Of a stretch of DNA of 64,000 nucleotides, positions 45,499 through 60,780 are shown piece after piece. Under the pieces are notes generated by a model. It searched no databases. It saw nothing but the letters and a program-made list of their open reading frames with translations, and was not told the DNA's origin. A program made the position numbers and the translations under genes. The first letter of the stretch is position 1. Each line of letters begins with the position of its first letter. Origin of the DNA: a virus (Duplodnaviria; Caudoviricetes); the IMG/VR virus record IMGVR_UViG_3300014204_013734, positions 256,001-320,000 of that record. One strand, written 5' to 3'.

Positions 45499-45730
45499 AG
45501 TATCGTTGGAAAATGGCGGCGTCATTGTCAAGCTGCATATGGAAGAAGCCTTAAAGATTGATCAGCTCAAGGGTTTGATGGTTCGGTATGGTTGGGACGA
45601 TGGAATCAAGAAAGCGGTAGAAGTGCTTTTCGTAGACATTGAAAAACAGGTTGGCAAAGAAATCCAGGAAGCACTTCACCGAAGCGTCCTTGACGGGACG
45701 ATCTCGTTTGACAGGAAAGACATTCCATGA
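45491..45730 (+). CDS. Hypothetical protein
   Basis: Coupled small ORF. Confidence 0.5.
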   Translation: MSEVSLENGGVIVKLHMEEALKIDQLKGLMVRYGWDDGIKKAVEVLFVDIEKQVGKEIQEALHRSVLDGTISFDRKDIP

Positions 45731-46461
45731 ATACCATTCCTGACGAATTGAAGGATTGGTTCAAGACATTGATTTCTCCCCCGGATGCCGAAGCCTTCAT
45801 CATTTCCAATTTGGAATCTGTTGACTTAGCTTCATGGCCCGATGAAAGCCATGTCGGGCTAATCGTCAGAGGGACCCCGACCGAAGCGCAATCCAAGGAA
45901 TTGCTTAGGGTGTTGAAACCGGGCGGGCACCTGATCTTGATTGCCCCTGACACGGAACCGACCGGGCATACAGGAACTTGCCGGATTGAAGATGCAGGTT
46001 TTGAAATCAGGGATTCCGTCCTGCTGGTGGATAGCCCGGAAGGGTTCTATTATGTCCCGAAGGCATCACGGGCCGAACGGGAAGCCGGGTGTTCAAACAT
46101 AGCCCCGAAACAACGGGATGAGGCTAGGAAAGAAGGAAACCCTGGCGGGGTTCATTCGGTCAGGAACTTTCACCCCACCATAAAACCTTCTGCGCTTATG
46201 GAAAAGCTGTTGGGGGACGGGAAGAATGGTGACAGTCCCATTCTTGACCCTTTCATGGGCAGCGGGTCCACGGGTATCGCCTGTGTCAAGACTGGGCATG
46301 ATTTTGTAGGGATTGACATGGAACCGGATTACGTGGGTATTGCGACGGCCCGTATCCGATATTGGGATGGGGAAACCGGTTTGGTTGAACGGTCCGTCAC
46401 GACGGAACAGGAACCCGAACTTGAAAAAACGGATTCCTTAAATGACATTTTCGGATGGTGA
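45727..46461 (+). CDS. DNA N6/N4 methyltransferase, SAM-binding module (no DPPY)
   Basis: LRVLKPGG, EDAGFEIRD, FYYVPKAS, HPTIKP and ILDPFMGSGSTG are present. Catalytic motif IV is absent. Confidence 0.8.
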   Translation: MNTIPDELKDWFKTLISPPDAEAFIISNLESVDLASWPDESHVGLIVRGTPTEAQSKELLRVLKPGGHLILIAPDTEPTGHTGTCRIEDAGFEIRDSVLLVDSPEGFYYVPKASRAEREAGCSNIAPKQRDEARKEGNPGGVHSVRNFHPTIKPSALMEKLLGDGKNGDSPILDPFMGSGSTGIACVKTGHDFVGIDMEPDYVGIATARIRYWDGETGLVERSVTTEQEPELEKTDSLNDIFGW

Positions 46462-47314: not shown

Positions 47315-47974
47315 ATGGAAAGCAAATCGACGGTTCTAAGTTTAGACGATTTTCTGACCCAGCAAACAACATCCCCCGATACGAAAGCAATGGAACTTGC
47401 TTACAAGACTTCCTGCGAAGATGCCGGCCGTGCCAAACGTGATATGGCCATCAATGAAGGATGGAATACGGTGTGGGGATGTCTGTTTGAAGCATACCTG
47501 AAATTTTCTCGGTTCGTTGTTGAAAGGAGCACTCCTGTTGGAGTAACCCTCTTTGTCCACCGTCAAATGGCGGTCAGGGAAATCCCGGATATCATTGCTT
47601 ACCTAGCCAGAGCCTATTCCGACCCTTCCTGCCGGCAACAGGAAAAACCTGACAACTACGGTTTGCACAAGGCCTTGAATATGGCGACAGCCATAATCAC
47701 CAAAACATCAGCCGCGTCCCAAATGGTTGGGGATCAGTGCATTCTGCCTGGGTGGGACGAACCGGCACAAGCAGTCGTCCAAGCGTTTTCTTCTTTGCGG
47801 CAGCAGATTACGATTACAGGGGCAGGAACGGACGAAGGGTCTACCAGCGTAACCCTCAATGAAAAGTATGTCCTTGATGCCATTCCCATGATGATTGCAC
47901 GTCTTTCTCGCGCCTATGCCTTGCTTTCTAAAGCCGAAGATGTGGTGGAAACGGCTAAAACGGTAACGCCATGA
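47315..47974 (+). CDS. Hypothetical protein
   Basis: RBS GGGAG. Internal two-fold similarity (EIPDIIAYLARAY / AIPMMIARLSRAY). Confidence 0.6.
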   Translation: MESKSTVLSLDDFLTQQTTSPDTKAMELAYKTSCEDAGRAKRDMAINEGWNTVWGCLFEAYLKFSRFVVERSTPVGVTLFVHRQMAVREIPDIIAYLARAYSDPSCRQQEKPDNYGLHKALNMATAIITKTSAASQMVGDQCILPGWDEPAQAVVQAFSSLRQQITITGAGTDEGSTSVTLNEKYVLDAIPMMIARLSRAYALLSKAEDVVETAKTVTP

Positions 47975-49731
47975 ATGGTGAATTTCCGTCTGTTTTTGAG
48001 CATCCTTTGAAGGTAATTCACCTGTTCGCCGGAGCTGGGGGCGGTATCCTGGGGGACTTGATCCTTGGTCACGAATGTGTTGCTGCCGTAGAGATTGAAC
48101 CCTTCTGCCAACGGGTGTTGAAGGAGCGCATTGTGGACGGGGCATTGCCGGATTTCCCCATCCACGATGATGTCAGGACGTTCCAAGGCAAACCGTGGAA
48201 GGGTAAGATTGACATGATTTCAGGGGGCTTCCCCTGCACCAATATTTCCTTGGCAGGAAAAGGGGAAGGGCTTTCGGGACCACAAAGCGGACTCTGGTTT
48301 GAATTTGCACGGATCATTTCCGAAGCGGAACCCAAGTTCGTGTGGATTGAAAACGTTCCAGCCCTTCGGGGCCGCGGATTAACCGTCGTGCTCGGAAACC
48401 TCCATGACCTGGGCTACAACGCCCGGTGGGGGGTTATGTCCGCTGCTGATGCCGGAGCTCCGCATCTTCGCAAACGTTTTTGGATACTGGCGTGGCGTCA
48501 AGGGGTCGGGAAAGTGTCCGGCGAACCTGCCGCAAAATGGGATTCAAAGGCGAAGTCATGGAGGATCATCCGATCTTTTGATGGGACATCAATCTCTTAT
48601 GGAGAAGCCTTTCCGGTTTGGGGGGTGATGCGTAACGGTGGATTATTCCATCCGCCAATTCCGGAATTCGGTGCTTTCAACGGTGTTTCCTGGCCAACCC
48701 CGAGGTCCGGTAAGGTTTCGGACGAAAACGCAGAATCCTGGATGAAACGGCATGAGGAAGGCAAGGTGTCAACCCCGCCATTGGCTTTGGCCGTGAAGAT
48801 GGCAGACGGGAAAGAACCCTTTCCAACCCCGACGAAGTCCATGGCGACCGTACAGGACATGGAACAGGCAAGGTTTGCGGGAAACGATCCGAAGCGTCCG
48901 AAATACGCGGATGCCTTGAATTCATTTCCGACCCCTAGAGCAACCGATGCCGACCGGGGCGGTAGGGGAGACTTGATCCAGGCAGTTCGGGGGAACGCCA
49001 ATTCCCATCATAGTTCGTGGCCAACCCCTCGGGCGTCCCAAGGGGGTCCTGATTTCGCCCGGGAAGACCGGCCGGAATCAGGTGGTGACGATCTGGCAAC
49101 TGCAGTAGCCCGCGAGGAATTCGGGACGCCTACCGCCAACATGAAGGAAGCATCTGATTCTGAAACATGGCCAACGCCAACGTCTCGTGATTGGCGTTCG
49201 GGAAAAGCAAGTCAGGCTACTTTAAACAAGAATAGCCGTCCCTTGAGTGAAATTGTTGAAAAGCGACTCCAGGAAGAAGCATCCGATCCTTCAAGTTGGC
49301 CAACCCCGCGGGCATGTTCCGCCATTGCGGCGACTTTGACGGAAAACAACCTAGACCCCAGATTATTTCCGAACCTGGAAACTGTGGTGACAAGGTCCGA
49401 CCCGAAAAACATGCTCGGCGGGCAACTTAACCCTGATTGGGTAGAATGGCTGATGGGTTGGCCTATTGGATGGACCAACCTGGACCCCCTGAACATGGAA
49501 TGGTTTGAAATGTGGAAAAAGGGGACAGGTCCTTGGACGCAAGGGGGTTGGTGGGACGAAGACCCGTCCAAGACCGGTTTCGCTCCCAGGGTCGCTAGGG
49601 ATGTTTCGGATCGTGTCCGACGGTTGGCGGCACTTGGCAACGGACAGGTTCCGGCGACCGTTGCCTTGGCTTGGATCACGCTTGCAACAATGCAGGAATC
49701 CACGGATTTAGACACTTTTTTCGGGTGGTAA
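47971..49731 (+). CDS. dcm: DNA cytosine-C5 methyltransferase with WPTP repeats
   Basis: LFAGAGG, GGFPC, ENV, R.R.W and ALGNGQV motifs, plus seven (W/F/G)xTP repeats. Confidence 0.9.
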   Translation: MNGEFPSVFEHPLKVIHLFAGAGGGILGDLILGHECVAAVEIEPFCQRVLKERIVDGALPDFPIHDDVRTFQGKPWKGKIDMISGGFPCTNISLAGKGEGLSGPQSGLWFEFARIISEAEPKFVWIENVPALRGRGLTVVLGNLHDLGYNARWGVMSAADAGAPHLRKRFWILAWRQGVGKVSGEPAAKWDSKAKSWRIIRSFDGTSISYGEAFPVWGVMRNGGLFHPPIPEFGAFNGVSWPTPRSGKVSDENAESWMKRHEEGKVSTPPLALAVKMADGKEPFPTPTKSMATVQDMEQARFAGNDPKRPKYADALNSFPTPRATDADRGGRGDLIQAVRGNANSHHSSWPTPRASQGGPDFAREDRPESGGDDLATAVAREEFGTPTANMKEASDSETWPTPTSRDWRSGKASQATLNKNSRPLSEIVEKRLQEEASDPSSWPTPRACSAIAATLTENNLDPRLFPNLETVVTRSDPKNMLGGQLNPDWVEWLMGWPIGWTNLDPLNMEWFEMWKKGTGPWTQGGWWDEDPSKTGFAPRVARDVSDRVRRLAALGNGQVPATVALAWITLATMQESTDLDTFFGW

Positions 49732-49734
49732 AGA

Positions 49735-50322
49735 ATGAAACAAGAAGAAATTTATAAGGCTATGCGGGCTAGGTTTGCAACGGTTCTGGACGGATTCGTC
49801 GGTCAACGTTTGGAACCCCGTACCGTGCGTCAGATCAAACAAACCCTACAGGCTACTCTTTCCAGGATGATTGACGAAGGTCTTATTAACTTCCCCGTAC
49901 CAAATTGGCAACTGCGTGTGTACGAAAATGAAGGAAGCCTGGAAATCGTTTTTGGGGATCCAGATGAAAACCTACCGAAGAAAGGAACGGAGATGTTTTT
50001 GGACGAATACCAAGACAAGGCAAAAGTCACGGCTTTTTATCCTCGCAGATGGGCTAACCTGAATTATCCGACACTTGGACTGTGCGGGGAAGCTGGGGAA
50101 TTCGCCAACAAGGTGAAGAAGATTGAACGGGATCATGGGGGTGTTCTGACCGACGCTGTTCGGCAAGCCCTCAAAGAAGAACTGGGAGACGTGCTTTGGT
50201 ACGTGGCCATGTGCGCTGATGAACTTGGGCTTACTTTGTCGGATGTAGCGGAAACCAACGTGGCCAAGTTAGCATCCCGATTGGCACGGGATCAGATCAA
50301 GGGTGAAGGGGACCAGAGATGA
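49735..50322 (+). CDS. MazG-like nucleotide pyrophosphatase
   Basis: LGLCGEAGE, EELGDVLWY and N..KL..R motifs. Confidence 0.85.
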   Translation: MKQEEIYKAMRARFATVLDGFVGQRLEPRTVRQIKQTLQATLSRMIDEGLINFPVPNWQLRVYENEGSLEIVFGDPDENLPKKGTEMFLDEYQDKAKVTAFYPRRWANLNYPTLGLCGEAGEFANKVKKIERDHGGVLTDAVRQALKEELGDVLWYVAMCADELGLTLSDVAETNVAKLASRLARDQIKGEGDQR

Positions 50323-50984
50323 AAAAACCTTATCAACACATTAAGGTGCAGAAATTTTTGGATGACCAAAGTCAACGCCTGGAAACGGGGGCGGTTTGTG
50401 TAAATTTGGACTGGCCAGGTTTATTTATCCGGGGGGATAGTTGTCATGGATTCCTGATGCGTATTTTGGAACATCTTCAATGTGTTCTTGAAGGAGGAAA
50501 TGCAATTATGACCTGTCAACCTTTGTTGGAACTGGTTCATTTGCTGGACTCTCCAGTGCACTACGGGCCTGAATATGGACAATACGTTTCGCGTTTTTTG
50601 GAAGAACTGGACAATCGTTTTTCAATGTCCGATGACCCTAAGAAACCCTTGTATGATCCAAAAAGGGTGTCGGAAAGGGCTTTGTCGGAATTGGAAGCTA
50701 AGTTCAGGGAAGCCCTTTCAGGTATGCTTGATAAGACCTGGAATAACGCTTCCGAAGAAGAACTGAACGACTTTCTTAAGAAAGTCGTCATTGAATTCAT
50801 TGATAAGGATTTCCTTCCTTGGTGGTCTCTTCCAACAATCAAATGGGAAGTTGTAGCTTCTGAAGGATGGTCTTCTTTGAAATTCAATTTCCGCATACCG
50901 GGGAAATCTGACAAATTCTTCATTCAACCTTTCAAAAAGGAAAAAGACGGAAATGACCACGGAAGAGTTGGGACCCCATGTTAG
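50319..50984 (+). CDS. Hypothetical protein
   Basis: Coupled ORF with a DWPGLFIRGD motif. Confidence 0.55.
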   Translation: MKKPYQHIKVQKFLDDQSQRLETGAVCVNLDWPGLFIRGDSCHGFLMRILEHLQCVLEGGNAIMTCQPLLELVHLLDSPVHYGPEYGQYVSRFLEELDNRFSMSDDPKKPLYDPKRVSERALSELEAKFREALSGMLDKTWNNASEEELNDFLKKVVIEFIDKDFLPWWSLPTIKWEVVASEGWSSLKFNFRIPGKSDKFFIQPFKKEKDGNDHGRVGTPC

Positions 50985-51256
50985 AAACCGGGGCATGTTT
51001 GATTTCCAGGACCGGCATGCGGTTAACCCAGGTTCCGAAGATAGATTGCACTACTTCCATCAAAGCTGGGAAAACGATTGGACGCGTCCACGTATGGCTT
51101 CTGGAAAATGCCGTTCTGCAGGCGGAAGCTTTGAATGACGAATGGGTGTCATCCATGTTTTCAAAGTGGGAAGCAAAACGGTTGACTGATGCCGATGTGG
51201 AAACCTTAAACGATTGGTTGTTTGATCCTGAATTTGGACAAGGAAACAGGGCATGA
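50978..51256 (+). CDS. Hypothetical protein
   Basis: Coupled ORF. Its stop overlaps the ATG at 51253. Confidence 0.5.
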   Translation: MLETGACLISRTGMRLTQVPKIDCTTSIKAGKTIGRVHVWLLENAVLQAEALNDEWVSSMFSKWEAKRLTDADVETLNDWLFDPEFGQGNRA

Positions 51257-52503
51257 CACAGAAACTCGTCCTCAGACTCGGCAATTGTGTCGAAGTTATG
51301 CGGACTTTAGAGGAGGGAAGTGTAGGGGGGGTCGTAACTGACCCCCCCTACTAGTTGAATGGGATATCGTTCATGGGTAGAAAATGGGACACCGTGGATG
51401 AAAACAATACGCCAGTTCAGGAAGATTCGTCCAATGATGTTGAGCCAGAAGGGGTGTTCCTGGAACATGTCCATGCGCAGCAGGCATGGCACCTAGCCTG
51501 GCTCAAGGAAGCGTTCCGCGTCCTGAAGCCGGGCGGGGTCATTAAAGCATTCAGTGCGACCCGAACATTCCACAGGCTTGTTGCCGCCATGCAGGAAGCT
51601 GGTTTTGTTGATGTCAGGCTTCAAGCTTGGGTCTACGGATGTCTGTCGGAAGACACTGAAATTTTGGTCCGTCAGGGTAGTAGGGAAGAATGGATCCGGT
51701 ATCCGGGAGATGAAGCTATTCAGGGTTTGGAAACGCTTTGTTTTGATATGACAACAGGTCTGCGGTGGGAACGTATCCTTGAAGGGTTTTCCTATGACTA
51801 CGACGATATTGCTTTTCATCTAAAGGGTCCCCGTACTGACCAATTGGTATCAAAGAACCATAGGTGTTTGTTGATGGGGGCCGAAGGCAAGATGCAATTT
51901 GAATTGGCGGAAAATCTTCCTTCGTCCGTGATCATTCCTATCATTCCGGATTGGGTGCAACCGGTGCAGGAAGGGGATAACATCCTGTGGGGTGTAGCGG
52001 ACGTGAAACCCGTGTATTATACGGGTACCGTCTGGTGCGTGAAAGTTCCTACGGGGGCGTTCGTAGCCCGTAGGAATGGGAAAATCTTCATCACCGGGAA
52101 CAGTGGGTTTCCAAAATCATTAAGCATTTCTAAGGCTTTGGACAAGAAACAAGACAATGATCTTAAACGGGAAGTACGAAGAGCCGCAGTAGCAGCAGTT
52201 CAAGAAGCCGGGTTGTTTCTGCCGTCCAATTCTTTGTGGGATTGGACGGTTGGCGAACATGGTCCTGGGGATACATGGTGGAAAAAGTTTCAAGAAACAC
52301 TCCCAGGGCTTACGGACGAAAACAGAGAAAAGATTGAAGGTGCTATTGTGGCTACGGTTCAGAAAACAGCGGGTTGGTTTACTAGGAAGGATATTTACGA
52401 AGTACGGGCCCCTGCTTCTGCGAATTCTAAAAAGTGGTCCAAATACGGAACGGCCGTGAAACCGGCTTGGGAATCCATCGTCGTTGGGAGGAAACCGGAA
52501 TGA
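51253..52503 (+). CDS. DNA N6/N4 methyltransferase catalytic module, with an in-frame TAG after DPPY and a mini-intein
   Basis: MTQKL..GNCVEVM..VVTDPPY*LNGISFMGRKWD..RVLKPGG..YG[intein]SGFPKS..GTAVKPAWESIVVGRKP. No FxGxG motif. Confidence 0.75.
51322..51351 (+). other. Perfect 12-bp hairpin ending at the Tyr codon before the TAG
   Basis: GTAGGGGGGGTC-gtaact-GACCCCCCCTAC. Confidence 0.85.
51640..52101 (+). mobile_element. Mini-intein (154 aa, no endonuclease)
   Basis: YG|CLSEDTEIL...VSKNHR...VWCVKVPTGAFVARRNGKIFITGN|S. Confidence 0.9.
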
Positions 52504-52889
52504 GCAAGTCCATGACCGAAACTGAAATTTGCCGCAAGATTGCTCTTTATGACCCTGAAATCAATCTTCCAGTACGGTGTCTTGAGTTGAATCTCAGCGT
52601 CTTGGCAAATGCCTTTTGGCGGATAGAATGCTACAACAACGCTGTCGTGGCAATAAGTGCTTGCCATGATACAATGGTTTTGCTCCGTGAACTGCTTTCC
52701 GATGATTTCCTGGAAAGGTCTCCCGAAGGGGTTGATCTGCTTTGGGGGGCTTCTTTGGTGGAATGTACGACCATTCCCGAAGGCCAAATCTGGATGATCG
52801 GGGATCAGGAATCCCCTGCGGCTGTTACCTTCATCCAATTCAGTAATCCGAGGGAAGAAACTCTCGGGCTGTCGTATTCATTGAACTGA
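52500..52889 (+). CDS. Hypothetical protein
   Basis: ATGA-coupled ORF. Confidence 0.55.
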   Translation: MSKSMTETEICRKIALYDPEINLPVRCLELNLSVLANAFWRIECYNNAVVAISACHDTMVLLRELLSDDFLERSPEGVDLLWGASLVECTTIPEGQIWMIGDQESPAAVTFIQFSNPREETLGLSYSLN

Positions 52890-58489: not shown

Positions 58490-58986
58490 GCGAAAAGTTC
58501 GCGGACACGGATTCAATCGTCATTTGGCAGACAAGACTTGTGAAGATGGAAGACCTTGTCGCCAACGACTACAATCCGAACCGGATGCCAACCACAGAGA
58601 TGAAACTCCTGGAAATGTGCATCCGTAAGTTTGGGTTTCTCTTTCCGTTGATTGTATGCCCGGATCAGGGGAAGTACAGAATTGTGGACGGCTATCACAG
58701 GTACGAAGTGCTGAAACGCATGGCCGTCAAAGTGGTGTCCGCAGTGGTGTTGGACATCCCCTACCACGAAGCAGTGCAGCTTACCGTGCTGATGAACCGC
58801 ATCAAGGGCATGCACCAGGTGGAAGGCATGGCGGATTTGATCGTCAAGCTTGAAGATTTGGGCGTTGCCGATCAGGAAATCTGTGTGAATCTCGGCATGG
58901 AGGTTGAAGAATACCTCCGATTGAAGCAGCAACTTGGTATCGCCCATGCCTTTAGGGATCACCAGTATTCAAAATCGTGGGAATGA
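58471..58986 (+). CDS. ibrB: IbrB-like ParB/Srx-domain protein
   Basis: ANDYNPN, IVDGYHRY and TV.MNRIKG.H motifs. Confidence 0.8.
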   Translation: MESTLVSEKFADTDSIVIWQTRLVKMEDLVANDYNPNRMPTTEMKLLEMCIRKFGFLFPLIVCPDQGKYRIVDGYHRYEVLKRMAVKVVSAVVLDIPYHEAVQLTVLMNRIKGMHQVEGMADLIVKLEDLGVADQEICVNLGMEVEEYLRLKQQLGIAHAFRDHQYSKSWE

Positions 58987-59504
58987 ATATGCTTGTTGCT
59001 ACCATTGCCAGGAAACCGATTAGTATGACCGTCGTCGACAACGTGTTGGTACACGGGGTCGGTGGGTTCAACATAGACGATTGCCGGATAACCCCGACCG
59101 GGGAACGTCTAGGCGGCGGGGATGAATCGGCAGAATCCATTGACGGAAAGTGGTCTGGTTGGAGCCGTCCTTGGATGCACGATCCTGCCAAGGTGTTCAA
59201 GGTAGCATCGGAAGTACGAGACAAGGTTGAAAAAGCCACGACCTTGGGACGTTGGCCCGCTAATGTCATCTTGATTCATTTACCAGAGTGCCGTGAACAG
59301 GGAAATGGGACCGTGTGGGAATGTGCTGAAGGGTGTCCGGTCGCCTACTTGAATCAGACTGTCGGGATCACCAAAAGTGGGAGCATTGATTCATGGAGGG
59401 AAGGGGTGCCTGGTCCTGTGTATGGCCATCCTTCGGCCCGTCAAGTCACATTCCAAGGAGATGCCGGGTTTGTGTCCCGGTTTTTCAAGCAGGTCAAACG
59501 ATGA
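58983..59504 (+). CDS. Methyltransferase middle module A
   Basis: ARKP..NVLVHGVGGFNIDDCRI..GRWPANVI..SRFF matches the internal segment of phage N6/N4 MTases. Confidence 0.75.
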   Translation: MNMLVATIARKPISMTVVDNVLVHGVGGFNIDDCRITPTGERLGGGDESAESIDGKWSGWSRPWMHDPAKVFKVASEVRDKVEKATTLGRWPANVILIHLPECREQGNGTVWECAEGCPVAYLNQTVGITKSGSIDSWREGVPGPVYGHPSARQVTFQGDAGFVSRFFKQVKR

Positions 59505-59989
59505 TCGTCGCTACGCTGGCCAGAAAGCCTTTGCGGGGAACCATCCTTGACAACATTATGTTATATGGGGTCGGGGCTTTGAACATCAACGATTGCAGGA
59601 TAGGTACAGACCCGATTGTCGTCCAGGGGGGCGGTGGCGCCGCTTGGGATACTGATGGGAACAAAGTCGGACGCCCGATGGGGGAGATCAATGAAGCACG
59701 TATCGGAAGGTTTCCCGCCAATCTTGTCCTTGTTCACCAAGAAGGGTGCACACGTGCCGGAATTGCGAAGGTGAAAGGAAGTGGCCATTGGATTTCAGCC
59801 GGAGATTCAAAGGGTGTAGTGTGGGGGAAAGGGTTCCATCAGGAACAATCCGATTTCGGGAATGTTCTTGCTGATTCCGAAGGGTTGGAAACTGTTGATG
59901 TATGGGTTTGCACCGTTGGATGTCCCGTTCCTGAAATGGATCAACAAAGTGGGGTTTCTCGTTTTTTCAAGCAGGTGAAGGGGGATTGA
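59501..59989 (+). CDS. Methyltransferase middle module B (tandem paralog)
   Basis: ARKP..YGVGALNINDCRI..GRFPANLV..SRFF. Confidence 0.75.
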   Translation: MIVATLARKPLRGTILDNIMLYGVGALNINDCRIGTDPIVVQGGGGAAWDTDGNKVGRPMGEINEARIGRFPANLVLVHQEGCTRAGIAKVKGSGHWISAGDSKGVVWGKGFHQEQSDFGNVLADSEGLETVDVWVCTVGCPVPEMDQQSGVSRFFKQVKGD

Positions 59990-60780
59990 TGATGGAACGG
60001 AAACTTGGCGGATTCAGACCGGAACCTTTAGACCCGAAACATTGGACGTTTTCCGACAAGTTGAAGCCCCGCTTGTGCGCATTGAGGGAAGATGACGTGG
60101 ACCTTCGTCCCTTCTCTTCCCCCCGACACGACCAACAATGGACGAATTCCTGTGTAGCCAATGCAGTCATTAAAGCATTGGAAATCAAACGGATCATGAA
60201 GTTCGGGCATGCAGCGCATGTCGACCTGTCCCGCCTCGCTGTTTACTTCCTTGCTCGGGAACTGATGTTCCCCCAGGAAACGTCACAGGATGCTGGAACT
60301 TACGTATCCCTTGCGTGTGATGTCCTGCGGCGGTGGGGCGTTTGCACCGAAGAAGCTTGGCCATTTGACCTTAATAAGGTGTTCTCACCTCCCCCTTGGG
60401 GAGCCATGCGACAGGCACATGTCAACCGGATTGCAGCGTTCTACAGGCTTGATTCAGGTGTTTCCAGGGCTCGTCTGGTGGAAGATGTCATCCGTTGCCT
60501 TCGGGCGGGTAACCCCGTCGTTTACGGGACTGCAATTGGCCAGAACTGGTTTGATTACAAACCGGACCAAGTGTTGACGACCCCCAAGGACATGAAAGAT
60601 ATGGTAGGTCGGCATGCTACTGTTCTGGTCGGGTTTGCAAATGGCAGGTTCATCGGAGAAAACAGTTGGGGACCGAATTGGGGTTCCAATGGGTTCTACT
60701 GGATGGATCCTGGGTATATAACCTGGAAGGAATCCTGCGATTTTTGGACAATCACGGCCCCTTGGCAGGAGGTCAAATGA
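59986..60780 (+). CDS. Papain-like C1 cysteine peptidase
   Basis: DQ..NSCVANA, HATVLVG and NSWG..WG.NG motifs. Confidence 0.85.
   Translation: MMMERKLGGFRPEPLDPKHWTFSDKLKPRLCALREDDVDLRPFSSPRHDQQWTNSCVANAVIKALEIKRIMKFGHAAHVDLSRLAVYFLARELMFPQETSQDAGTYVSLACDVLRRWGVCTEEAWPFDLNKVFSPPPWGAMRQAHVNRIAAFYRLDSGVSRARLVEDVIRCLRAGNPVVYGTAIGQNWFDYKPDQVLTTPKDMKDMVGRHATVLVGFANGRFIGENSWGPNWGSNGFYWMDPGYITWKESCDFWTITAPWQEVK

What the first reader, a model, noticed from the sequence alone, without database searches (positions are those of the whole stretch)
51253..51375. In-frame TAG directly after the catalytic DPPY, at the foot of a perfect G7/C7 hairpin
Seen: ATG 51253 reads ..VGGVVTDPPY, then TAG TTG AAT, then GISFMGRKWD in the same frame. 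Homologs usually read DPPYG(I/L)xFMG, so the stop lies within what looks like a 9-nt insert. The codons for VGGV-VT-DPPY form a perfect 12-bp stem (51322-51351) ending on the base just before the stop. TAG is a true stop elsewhere in the window. Inference: this could be programmed recoding (readthrough, or a short ribosomal hop like T4 gene 60, where a stop follows the take-off codon at a stem-loop). It could also be a further split that supplies DPPY as a 33-aa peptide with restart at TTG/ATG. Either would act as a switch on the MTase.
Basis: partly seen in the sequence, partly recalled or inferred. Interest (0 to 1): 0.78.

Follow-up and report, generated by a model that had tools for sequence, protein, structure and literature searches.

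The report
Ribosome-hop gap in phage methylase gene
A giant phage's DNA-methylase gene is cut just after its catalytic DPPY motif by a 9-base, stop-containing gap below a conserved RNA hairpin, a device shared by dozens of phage methylase genes, which ribosomes most likely hop over; such hopping is very rare in natural genes and is untested here.

Summary
ATG 51253 reads 33 codons to DPPY, then TAG TTG AAT, then GISFMG in the same frame. A perfect 12-bp hairpin (51322-51351) ends on the last base before the TAG. Four independent assemblies carry the identical sequence. TAG is a normal stop in this phage, and none of its 35 tRNAs is a suppressor.

The break is not unique. About 73 protein clusters end exactly at DPPY(G). 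I read about 40 related loci at the DNA level. Each has a 5-24 nt gap at the same codon, nearly always opening with a stop. 25 of 31 gaps are not multiples of three, and most have matching Gly/Gly or Leu/Leu codons on both sides. The ORFs stay intact and under purifying selection on both sides. Every one has an RNA helix whose 3' arm is the DPPY codons, with compensatory changes that uninterrupted relatives lack.

Best reading (about 0.55 for this window): a short programmed translational bypass. This window is an atypical "Tyr-type" member with no cognate landing codon and an in-frame gap. Re-initiation at TTG 51355 or readthrough therefore remain possible here.

This scan has flagged the same family on other DNA. 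I found no paper describing it. Nothing has been tested experimentally.

The parts
51253..51351 (+). ORF1: 33 codons, the N-terminal strand and catalytic DPPY motif of a beta-class N6/N4 DNA methyltransferase
   Evidence: The peptide is 85% identical to the N-peptide of L025. It belongs to a set of about 73 protein clusters that end at DPPY(G).
51322..51351 (+). Perfect 12-bp hairpin with a 6-nt loop. The 5' arm is the V-G-G-V codons and the 3' arm is the D-P-P-Y codons. It ends on the last base of the take-off codon.
   Evidence: Conserved with compensatory changes in interrupted relatives only.
51349..51351 (+). TAC (Tyr), the proposed take-off codon. It sits in the P site when TAG is in the A site.
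   Evidence: Position by homology with 30 of 31 interrupted relatives, where a stop directly follows the last shared codon. Inference.
51352..51360 (+). 9-nt gap TAG TTG AAT, absent from uninterrupted homologs. TAG 51352-54 is the stop. TTG 51355-57 is the only possible restart codon. AAT 51358-60 would be a near-cognate landing codon for tRNA-Tyr.
   Evidence: Its TTGAAT-GG resembles the commonest gap core (TGAAT-GG) of Gly-type relatives.
51361..52503 (+). ORF2: resumes at GGG (G-I-S-F-M-G...) and carries the rest of this methylase module up to ...VGRKPE and the TGA stop
   Evidence: The G/(I/L)/x/F codons before the first ATG (51373) are kept as coding in all interrupted relatives.
51640..52101 (+). 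154-codon intein-like insert (Cys1 ... Asn, then Ser) between WVYG and SGFPKS of ORF2. It is a separate feature of the same gene.
   Evidence: One search gives the coordinates. The close relative L025 reads WCYG-SGFPKS without it, while many homologs carry it at the same point. Pfam and PDB sequence searches do not recognise it.

Best explanation
The 9 nt TAG TTG AAT form a short non-coding gap in one methyltransferase coding sequence. Ribosomes skip it by programmed translational bypassing (a 'stop hop').

Proposed steps, all inferred:
1. The ribosome translates ORF1 and has to melt the G7/C7 hairpin to read D-P-P-Y.
2. With peptidyl-tRNA-Tyr on UAC in the P site and UAG in the A site, it pauses.
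3. The anticodon lets go and the mRNA slides forward 9 nt. This is helped by re-pairing of the DPPY codons with the already exited 5' arm of the hairpin, comparable to the 5' stem-loop of T4 gene 60.
4. Decoding resumes at GGG.

The product reads ...VVTDPPY-GISFMG..., which is co-linear with uninterrupted homologs.

Shown here: the anatomy; its recurrence in dozens of divergent phage methylase genes; purifying selection on both sides; and the co-varying helix.

Not shown here: that a single polypeptide is made, how efficient the step is, and how landing works in this Tyr-type member, which has no cognate landing codon.
For: (1) Recurrence.
- 9-10 of the 120 best homologs of the whole protein begin exactly at the Met of FMG.
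- A profile of the N-peptides finds 67 cluster representatives that end at DPPYG and 6 that end at DPPY.
- At the DNA level, 31 distinct interrupted genes of this subfamily were read. More come from a second subfamily, DPPYG-TTACKWD.

(2) Gap lengths are 5-24 nt, and 25 of 31 are not multiples of 3. Readthrough therefore cannot be the general mechanism.

(3) A stop follows the last shared codon in 30 of 31 genes. In 21 of 22 Gly-type gaps the codon before the stop and the codon before resumption are both GGN. The two Leu-type gaps are CTT/CTC and CTT/CTG.

(4) These are not dead genes. Downstream frames stay open for 139-689 codons. pN/pS of the N-part is 0.45 against 0.43 in uninterrupted genes. 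For the three codons between the gap and the first ATG it is 0.30 against 0.24.

(5) Re-initiation cannot be the general mechanism. 12 of 33 genes have no ATG, GTG, TTG or CTG upstream of those conserved codons, and in some the frame is closed by a stop right before them.

(6) The helix.
- All 30 interrupted genes tested have a 7-15 bp helix with the DPPY(G) codons as 3' arm, either local or 80-95 nt long-range. The median is 9.5 bp, against 6 bp in 29 uninterrupted genes (p = 2e-10).
- In the short-gap set, 87% of cells pair. There are 15 double-change cells against 5.3 in shuffles (0 of 500 shuffles reach the observed value), and slid registers pair at about 50%.
- The uninterrupted set pairs at 63% with no covariation.
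- G-U to A-C mismatches are 14:2 against 42:26, which fits an RNA structure on the sense strand (p = 0.04).

(7) The closest relative, L025 (N-peptide 85% and core 87% identical), has the same hairpin arms but a different, 8-nt gap.

(8) The literature supports the mechanics. In gene 60, a stop follows the take-off codon and mRNA re-folding 5' of the ribosome favours forward movement (PMC7026636; bioRxiv 10.1101/2024.12.09.627546). A 10-nt natural hop is supported for phage phiHau3 (PMC10732093).
Against: There is no experimental or expression evidence of any kind.

This window is atypical in three ways. The take-off codon is Tyr, not Gly. No UAY landing codon precedes GGG; AAT matches at two of three positions only. 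The gap is in frame and contains a TTG directly after the stop. Readthrough and termination-reinitiation therefore both remain physically possible here.

The other 'Tyr-type' relatives (L008, L014, L025, L029, L073, L074, L105, L106, L136, L137, L141) also lack cognate landing codons. One of them, L074, has no stop at all.

The enzyme family is already split into separately encoded modules: this ORF ends before the SAM-binding motif, which lies at 45727-46461. A further protein-level split is therefore not far-fetched.

The hairpin is partly predisposed by the amino-acid sequence, because V-G-x-V codons are near-complements of D-P-P-Y codons. Uninterrupted genes already pair at 63%.

The window's lineage has no close relative with the same gap.
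Confidence: 0.55

Rival explanations
1. Split gene with termination-reinitiation. ORF1 is released as a 33-residue DPPY peptide. The ribosome restarts at the adjacent TTG (51355) or at ATG 51373. The two polypeptides then assemble non-covalently into the active site.
For: TTG directly follows TAG in the same frame and would keep the conserved G-I-S-F residues. 8 of 33 interrupted relatives also have an ATG, GTG or TTG overlapping or next to the stop, and L045 has a classical ATGA overlap. This methylase family is already encoded in separate modules in this phage.
Against: 12 of 33 relatives have no start codon of any usual kind before the conserved G/(I/L)/x/F codons, and 13 have only CTG, which arises automatically from GGC+TGA. 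No Shine-Dalgarno sequence precedes the TTG, because the C-rich hairpin arm lies there. This model does not explain the duplicated Gly or Leu codons, or the helix that is selected only in interrupted genes.
Confidence: 0.2
2. Non-functional remnant. The insert inactivated the gene, or reduced it to a fragment without the catalytic motif, and it is simply tolerated.
For: No expression data exist. Phages of this size carry several other methylases. The window's exact gap was found nowhere else.
Against: The downstream frame is intact for 379 codons here and 139-689 codons in relatives. Purifying selection on both sides equals that of uninterrupted genes. The stop always sits at the junction rather than at a random distance. 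The hairpin is perfect here and is maintained by compensatory changes across relatives.
Confidence: 0.12
3. UAG readthrough. A near-cognate tRNA reads TAG, giving a protein with three extra residues (X-L-N) after DPPY.
For: The gap is in frame (9 nt), so a single misreading event would be enough.
Against: None of the 35 phage tRNAs is a suppressor. TAG is an ordinary stop in 11 of 47 genes. The nearest relative has an 8-nt gap, and 25 of 31 relatives have gaps that are not multiples of 3. L008 would need two TGA codons read. Three extra residues would sit directly after the catalytic Tyr (inference).
Confidence: 0.08

Closest known systems
Phage T4 gene 60 translational bypass (50-nt gap) and its homologs in topoisomerase genes, with the mobA homing-endonuclease cassette (PMC7026636; bioRxiv 10.1101/2022.08.31.505936)
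   Same: Two ORFs encode one co-linear protein. A stop codon directly follows the take-off codon. [quoted passage not shown] Both occur in phage DNA-metabolism genes.
   Different: The gap is 5-24 nt (9 nt here) rather than 50 nt. No take-off stem-loop within the gap and no Shine-Dalgarno-like element are visible. The stimulatory helix is built from the catalytic-motif codons themselves. The host gene is a methyltransferase; the 2022 survey found gene 60-type cassettes only in topoisomerase genes. No nuclease gene lies beside this window's gene, and nuclease genes are not enriched in my sample. This window lacks a matched landing codon.
Streptomyces phage phiHau3 large terminase, 10-nt coding gaps bypassed at a rare UUA codon (PMC10732093)
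   Same: Short gaps of about 10 nt in a phage gene, a slow-to-decode A-site codon at take-off, and a proposed 5' stem-loop. Junction-peptide evidence for that case was obtained in E. coli.
   Different: The trigger there is a hungry sense codon tied to host tRNA supply, not a stop. It is known from a few related (pro)phages, whereas the methylase gaps occur in dozens of divergent lineages with varied lengths.
Synthetic or adventitious 'stop hops' in E. coli, such as matched codons flanking a stop (reviewed in PMC5009743)
   Same: Peptidyl-tRNA leaves a codon followed by a stop and re-pairs a few nucleotides downstream. L033 (CTT TGA CTG) has exactly this form.
   Different: Those are low-level events in constructs. 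The review states that no natural in-frame stop-hopping occurrences are known. Here the arrangement is conserved in natural genes and comes with a dedicated helix.
Mitochondrial 'byp' elements of Magnusiomyces capitatus (cited in PMC7026636)
   Same: Many short non-coding inserts inside conserved genes, with matched take-off and landing triplets.
   Different: Those are 27-55 nt mobile GC-rich inserts at many sites in many genes of one mitochondrial genome (from memory of the cited work). Here there is one fixed site in one enzyme family across many phages.

Membership tests
Programmed translational bypassing (gene 60 type) | Two adjacent ORFs together are co-linear with a single protein in relatives | tested here: met
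   Homologs read DPPY-G-(I/L)-x-F-M-G without a break.
Programmed translational bypassing (gene 60 type) | Take-off codon directly followed by a stop or slow codon | tested here: met
   TAC is followed by TAG in the window. The same holds in 30 of 31 interrupted relatives.
Programmed translational bypassing (gene 60 type) | Matched take-off and landing codons | tested here: not met
   In the window the take-off codon is TAC and the codon before resumption is AAT, which matches at 2 of 3 positions. The feature is met in 21 of 22 Gly-type and both Leu-type relatives.
Programmed translational bypassing (gene 60 type) | Stimulatory mRNA structure conserved by covariation | tested here: met
   A helix with the DPPY codons as 3' arm is found in interrupted genes only. 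That it actually stimulates bypassing is inference.
Programmed translational bypassing (gene 60 type) | Nascent-peptide signal | not testable with these tools
   N-peptides of interrupted and uninterrupted genes look alike, apart from the residues that encode the helix.
Programmed translational bypassing (gene 60 type) | A single polypeptide spanning the gap is made | not testable with these tools
   Needs a reporter assay or mass spectrometry.
mobA-like homing-endonuclease plus bypass cassette | Free-standing homing-endonuclease gene next to the gap | tested here: not met
   The neighbouring ORFs 50319-50984, 50978-51256 and 52500-52889 have no Pfam, PHROG or Atlas match. In my sample, 2 interrupted loci have an upstream LAGLIDADG ORF, against 2 nuclease-type hits (LAGLIDADG_3, HNH_3) among uninterrupted loci; about 25 loci of each kind had upstream sequence.
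Stop-codon reassignment or suppression | TAG not used as a stop, or a suppressor tRNA is present | tested here: not met
   TAG ends 11 of 47 long frames. None of the 35 tRNAs is a suppressor.
Beta-class N6/N4 DNA methyltransferase (PF01555) | DPPY motif and family profile match; SAM-binding motif | tested here: inconclusive
   The PF01555 match is at E = 2.7e-5 but scores 24.7 bits, below the 26.7 cut-off. PHROG DNA methyltransferase families match, and homologs carry PF01555. The SAM-binding part is not in this ORF; it lies in 45727-46461 (PF01555, E = 2.3e-18).
Intein (Hint domain) | Cys1, C-terminal Asn, +1 Ser, exact absence from a close homolog, Hint profile match | tested here: inconclusive
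   The end residues and the precise absence in L025 are met. There is no Pfam Hint match and no PDB sequence match. The fold was not modelled.

The most novel reading that the evidence does not exclude
Phage methyltransferase genes hold a large natural family of very short (5-24 nt) translational bypass elements. They are driven by a helix that re-forms from the catalytic-motif codons as these leave the ribosome. Its 'Tyr-type' members, including this window, resume decoding without cognate re-pairing of the P-site tRNA. If so, landing is set by mRNA structure or by the incoming Gly-tRNA rather than by codon-anticodon matching.
Probability: 0.3. Interest if true: 0.9.

Novelty: new variant of a known kind. 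Interest (0 to 1): 0.8.

Why it matters
Natural translational bypassing is known from very few systems: T4 gene 60 and its topoisomerase homologs, one yeast mitochondrial genome, and a candidate in phage phiHau3. The main review states that no natural in-frame stop-hop is known.

This family has dozens of divergent members with gaps from 5 to 24 nt, two helix architectures, and both matched and unmatched landing codons. That would give a natural series for testing what makes a ribosome let go, slide and land.

It also matters for annotation. These genes are called as a 30-45-residue orphan plus an N-terminally truncated methylase, so active phage methylases are probably under-counted.

This window adds a clean, in-frame, perfect-hairpin Tyr-type case. 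It lies in a gene that also carries an intein-like insert, in a 381-kb phage seen in four samples.

Tried and rejected
- **Sequencing error.** Rejected: four independent assemblies are identical. The apparent difference in L006 is only a run of N.
- **TAG reassignment or suppressor tRNA.** Rejected.
- **Intrinsic terminator.** No T-run follows the hairpin, and the scan finds none.
- **Homing-endonuclease cassette beside the window's gene.** No domain was found in the neighbours. My 30-versus-29 locus sample shows no enrichment upstream of interrupted genes.
- **Phage GenBank records.** Only short, distant matches in mycobacteriophage methylases.
- **Bacterial and archaeal genomes.** The commonest gap pattern gave 22 hits in 596 Gb. 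All are chance matches without methylase context, against 5 true hits of 7 in viral contigs.
- **A second copy of the window's own gap form.** Searching viral contigs for DPPY-TAG-N6-GISFM gave no hits.
- **-1 or +1 frameshift readings of the 5- and 8-nt gaps.** Considered and rejected, because the P-site tRNA could not re-pair and no slippery site exists (by inspection).
- **Transcriptional slippage on the C7 run.** It would destroy the Tyr codon (by inspection).
- **The repeat finder.** With a 12-nt distance limit it did not list the hairpin, so a script was used instead.
- One script call returned nothing and was repeated.

Full report
**What is in the window**

The window lies at 256001-320000 of a 381,280-base IMG/VR virus record. 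It is a huge phage with 35 tRNA genes, none of them a suppressor.

At 51253 an ATG opens 33 codons that end in V-G-G-V-V-T-D-P-P-Y. Next come TAG, TTG and AAT. From GGG 51361 the same frame reads G-I-S-F-M-G-R-K-W-D and runs on to TGA 52501-03.

The codons for V-G-G-V are the exact reverse complement of the codons for D-P-P-Y. Bases 51322-51351 therefore form a perfect 12-bp stem with a 6-nt loop, and it ends on the last base before the stop. The local fold is far more stable than shuffles (z = -3.55). Stems of this quality are not expected by chance in this genome (20 hits against 0 in shuffles).

TAG ends 11 of 47 long frames in the window. Four independent assemblies from different samples are 100% identical across the site.

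**What the gene is**

The read-through translation matches the N-terminal part of the N6/N4 DNA methylase family. It has more than 1,500 homologs.

Uninterrupted homologs read DPPY, then one residue (mostly G), then (I/L)-x-F-M-G. The window therefore carries exactly nine extra bases.

The ORF ends at ...VGRKPE, before the SAM-binding motif. That motif is encoded separately at 45727-46461, as another first-stage note on this genome also says.

The gene also carries a 154-codon intein-like insert (51640-52101) between WVYG and SGFPKS. The close relative L025 lacks it.

**The break is a recurrent device**

- Nine or ten of the 120 best homologs start exactly at the Met of F-M-G. Fetching their contigs showed each time a small upstream ORF ending at DPPY, DPPYG or DPPYL plus a stop, followed a few bases later by the G-(I/L)-x-F-M-G continuation, often in another frame.
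- A profile of these N-peptides against 5.8 billion proteins returned 120 listed small proteins. 67 of them end exactly at DPPYG and 6 at DPPY, many on contigs above 100 kb.
- A metagenome scan gave 80 loci, holding 31 distinct interrupted and 29 distinct uninterrupted genes of this subfamily.
- Pattern scans showed the same device in a second methylase subfamily, DPPYG-TTACKWD.
- The commonest gap pattern has only chance matches in 596 Gb of bacterial and archaeal genomes. The device therefore looks phage-specific.

**Anatomy across the family**

Gap lengths are 5, 6, 7, 8 (the mode), 9, 10, 11, 12, 14, 16 and 24 nt among the 31 distinct genes, plus one 20-nt gap read by eye at the end of locus L102. 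25 of 31 are not multiples of three. A stop directly follows the last shared codon in 30 of 31.

- **Gly type (22 genes).** The codon before the stop and the codon before resumption are both Gly. 21 of 22 are GGN/GGN; an example is GGC TGAAT GGC.
- **Leu type (2 genes).** CTT TGA CTG and CTT TAGTG CTC.
- **Tyr type.** This includes the window. There is no duplicated codon: DPPY is followed by the gap and then by the single Gly codon.
  - window: TAGTTGAAT
  - L025: TGAAGTGC
  - L029, L105, L106, L136, L137, L141: TGAAC
  - L073: TAGGTGC
  - L014: TAGCTCAC
  - L008: TGAAGCTGA
  - L074: CCAGAAT, with no stop

In the Tyr type, the triplet before the Gly codon is mostly NAY or TGY. That is near-cognate, not cognate, for tRNA-Tyr. 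This reading is post hoc and only suggestive.

**The genes are alive, and the segment after the gap is translated**

Downstream frames are open for 139-689 codons, like those of uninterrupted genes. pN/pS of the 28 codons up to Tyr is 0.45 in interrupted genes and 0.43 in uninterrupted ones.

The three codons between the gap and the first ATG have pN/pS of 0.30 against 0.24, at saturated synonymous divergence. Every stop-interrupted gene read by the script in the scan kept that segment in frame with the ATG, so ascertainment does not explain this.

Only 8 of 33 genes have ATG, GTG or TTG upstream of that segment. 13 have only a CTG, which arises automatically from GGC+TGA. 12 have nothing, and in several the frame is closed by a stop right before the landing codon. 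Re-initiation therefore cannot explain the family, and neither can readthrough. Bypassing explains all of it.

**The helix**

In a 48-nt fold ending at the Tyr codon, 9.7 of the 12 DPPY bases are paired in interrupted genes, against 6.6 in uninterrupted ones (p = 8e-5).

On an ungapped 30-column alignment of short-gap genes, the 12-pair stem is paired in 87% of cells. There are compensatory changes at four pairs (15 double-change cells against 5.3 expected; 0 of 500 shuffles reach this). Slid registers pair at about 50%. The same stem in 29 uninterrupted genes pairs at 63% with no covariation.

G-U is tolerated but A-C is not (14:2 against 42:26, p = 0.04). That fits an RNA structure on the sense strand.

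Genes with longer gaps lack the local hairpin. They have a 9-15 bp helix between the same DPPY(G) codons and a segment 80-95 nt upstream, again with compensatory changes. Over all genes, the longest helix has a median of 9.5 bp against 6 bp (p = 2e-10). The G-G in V-G-G-V, unusual for the family, is the protein-level footprint of this helix.

**How it probably works here**

The gene 60 literature describes take-off at a Gly codon followed by UAG, and re-folding of upstream mRNA as it leaves the ribosome, which favours forward movement (PMC7026636; bioRxiv 10.1101/2024.12.09.627546). A 10-nt hop is supported for the phiHau3 terminase (PMC10732093).

By analogy, I infer that the ribosome stalls with tRNA-Tyr on UAC and UAG in the A site. 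The message slides 9 nt while the DPPY codons re-pair with the exited 5' arm, and decoding resumes at GGG.

L025, the nearest relative (85% and 87% identity), keeps the same arms but has an unrelated 8-nt gap. That argues that the gap is non-coding and that readthrough is not the ancestral solution.

The weak points for this window are the lack of a cognate landing codon, the in-frame TTG after the stop, and the complete absence of expression data. I put the hop at 0.55, restart at 0.20, a dead gene at 0.12 and readthrough at 0.08.

**Nuclease association**

In T4 the gap travels with the mobA nuclease gene. A few relatives do have LAGLIDADG, DUF559 or HNH genes next door. The window's neighbours have no recognisable domain. 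Upstream nuclease genes are no more frequent beside interrupted genes than beside uninterrupted ones in my sample. I therefore do not file this window as a nuclease cassette.

**Novelty**

Full-text searches found no paper that links bypassing to methyltransferases. The 2022 survey of gene 60-type elements found them only in topoisomerase genes. The 2016 review says no natural in-frame stop hop is known.

This scan has reported the same family several times on other DNA. My analysis was made before reading those notes and agrees with them on the hop and the helix, but not on a general nuclease link.

The window is a new, atypical (Tyr-type, in-frame) member of an unpublished variant of translational bypassing.

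Noticed in passing
window 51640-52101: A 154-codon intein-like insert (starts Cys-Leu-Ser-Glu-Asp-Thr, ends Gly-Asn, followed by Ser) sits between WVYG and SGFPKS of the methylase. Many homologs carry an insert at the same point, while the close relative L025 lacks it exactly. Pfam and PDB sequence searches do not recognise it.
   Followed up: partly
window 51253-52503 with 45727-46461 (and 58977-59989 according to another first-stage note): This methylase ORF stops at ...VGRKPE, before the SAM-binding motif. A separate gene, 45727-46461, carries the C-terminal PF01555 part (E = 2.3e-18). The enzyme seems to be encoded in separate modules, and several homologs (P0004, P0005, P0008, P0014) end at the same GRKP point.
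   Followed up: partly
L007, L012, L013, L015, L037, L056, L094, L104 (first 30-40 nt of the small ORF): Genes with 11-24 nt gaps have a conserved N-terminal extension (M-x-K-E-x-x-x-R-R-x-G-Q). Its Arg-Arg codons (CGT AGG) form the 5' arm of a long-range helix, with a loop of about 90 nt, to the P-P-Y-G codons. Their gaps share an ACCA motif just before the landing Gly codon.
   Followed up: partly
L017, L019, L021-L024, L135, L137, L141: A different methylase subfamily (DPPYG-TTACKWD) carries the same kind of gap at the same codon. Shifts are 5, 7, 8 and 9 nt, and one case (L021) needs only a +1 shift. Some gap sequences (TGACT, TGAAC) are identical to those in the FMG subfamily. This points to transfer of the device between subfamilies, or to convergence.
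   Followed up: no
L105 and L029: In the 5-nt Tyr-type genes the helix extends past the Tyr codon over the TGA stop itself (15 bp in L105). The stop is therefore inside the 3' arm.
   Followed up: no
window 47971-49731: A C5 cytosine methylase (PF00145 over residues 13-193) is followed by a long tail with seven spaced (W/F)-P-T-P-type motifs. This may be a multi-specific target-recognition region.
   Followed up: no
genome G000, e.g. 60432-60463, 79106-79137, 285273-285304, 318776-318806: About a dozen perfect 12-16 bp hairpins occur in the 381-kb genome, against none in shuffles. Most have AAGGCCCC.../...GGGGCCTT-type arms and look like intergenic terminators. The one at the methylase is the one I confirmed to lie inside a coding sequence; the positions of the others were not checked.
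   Followed up: no
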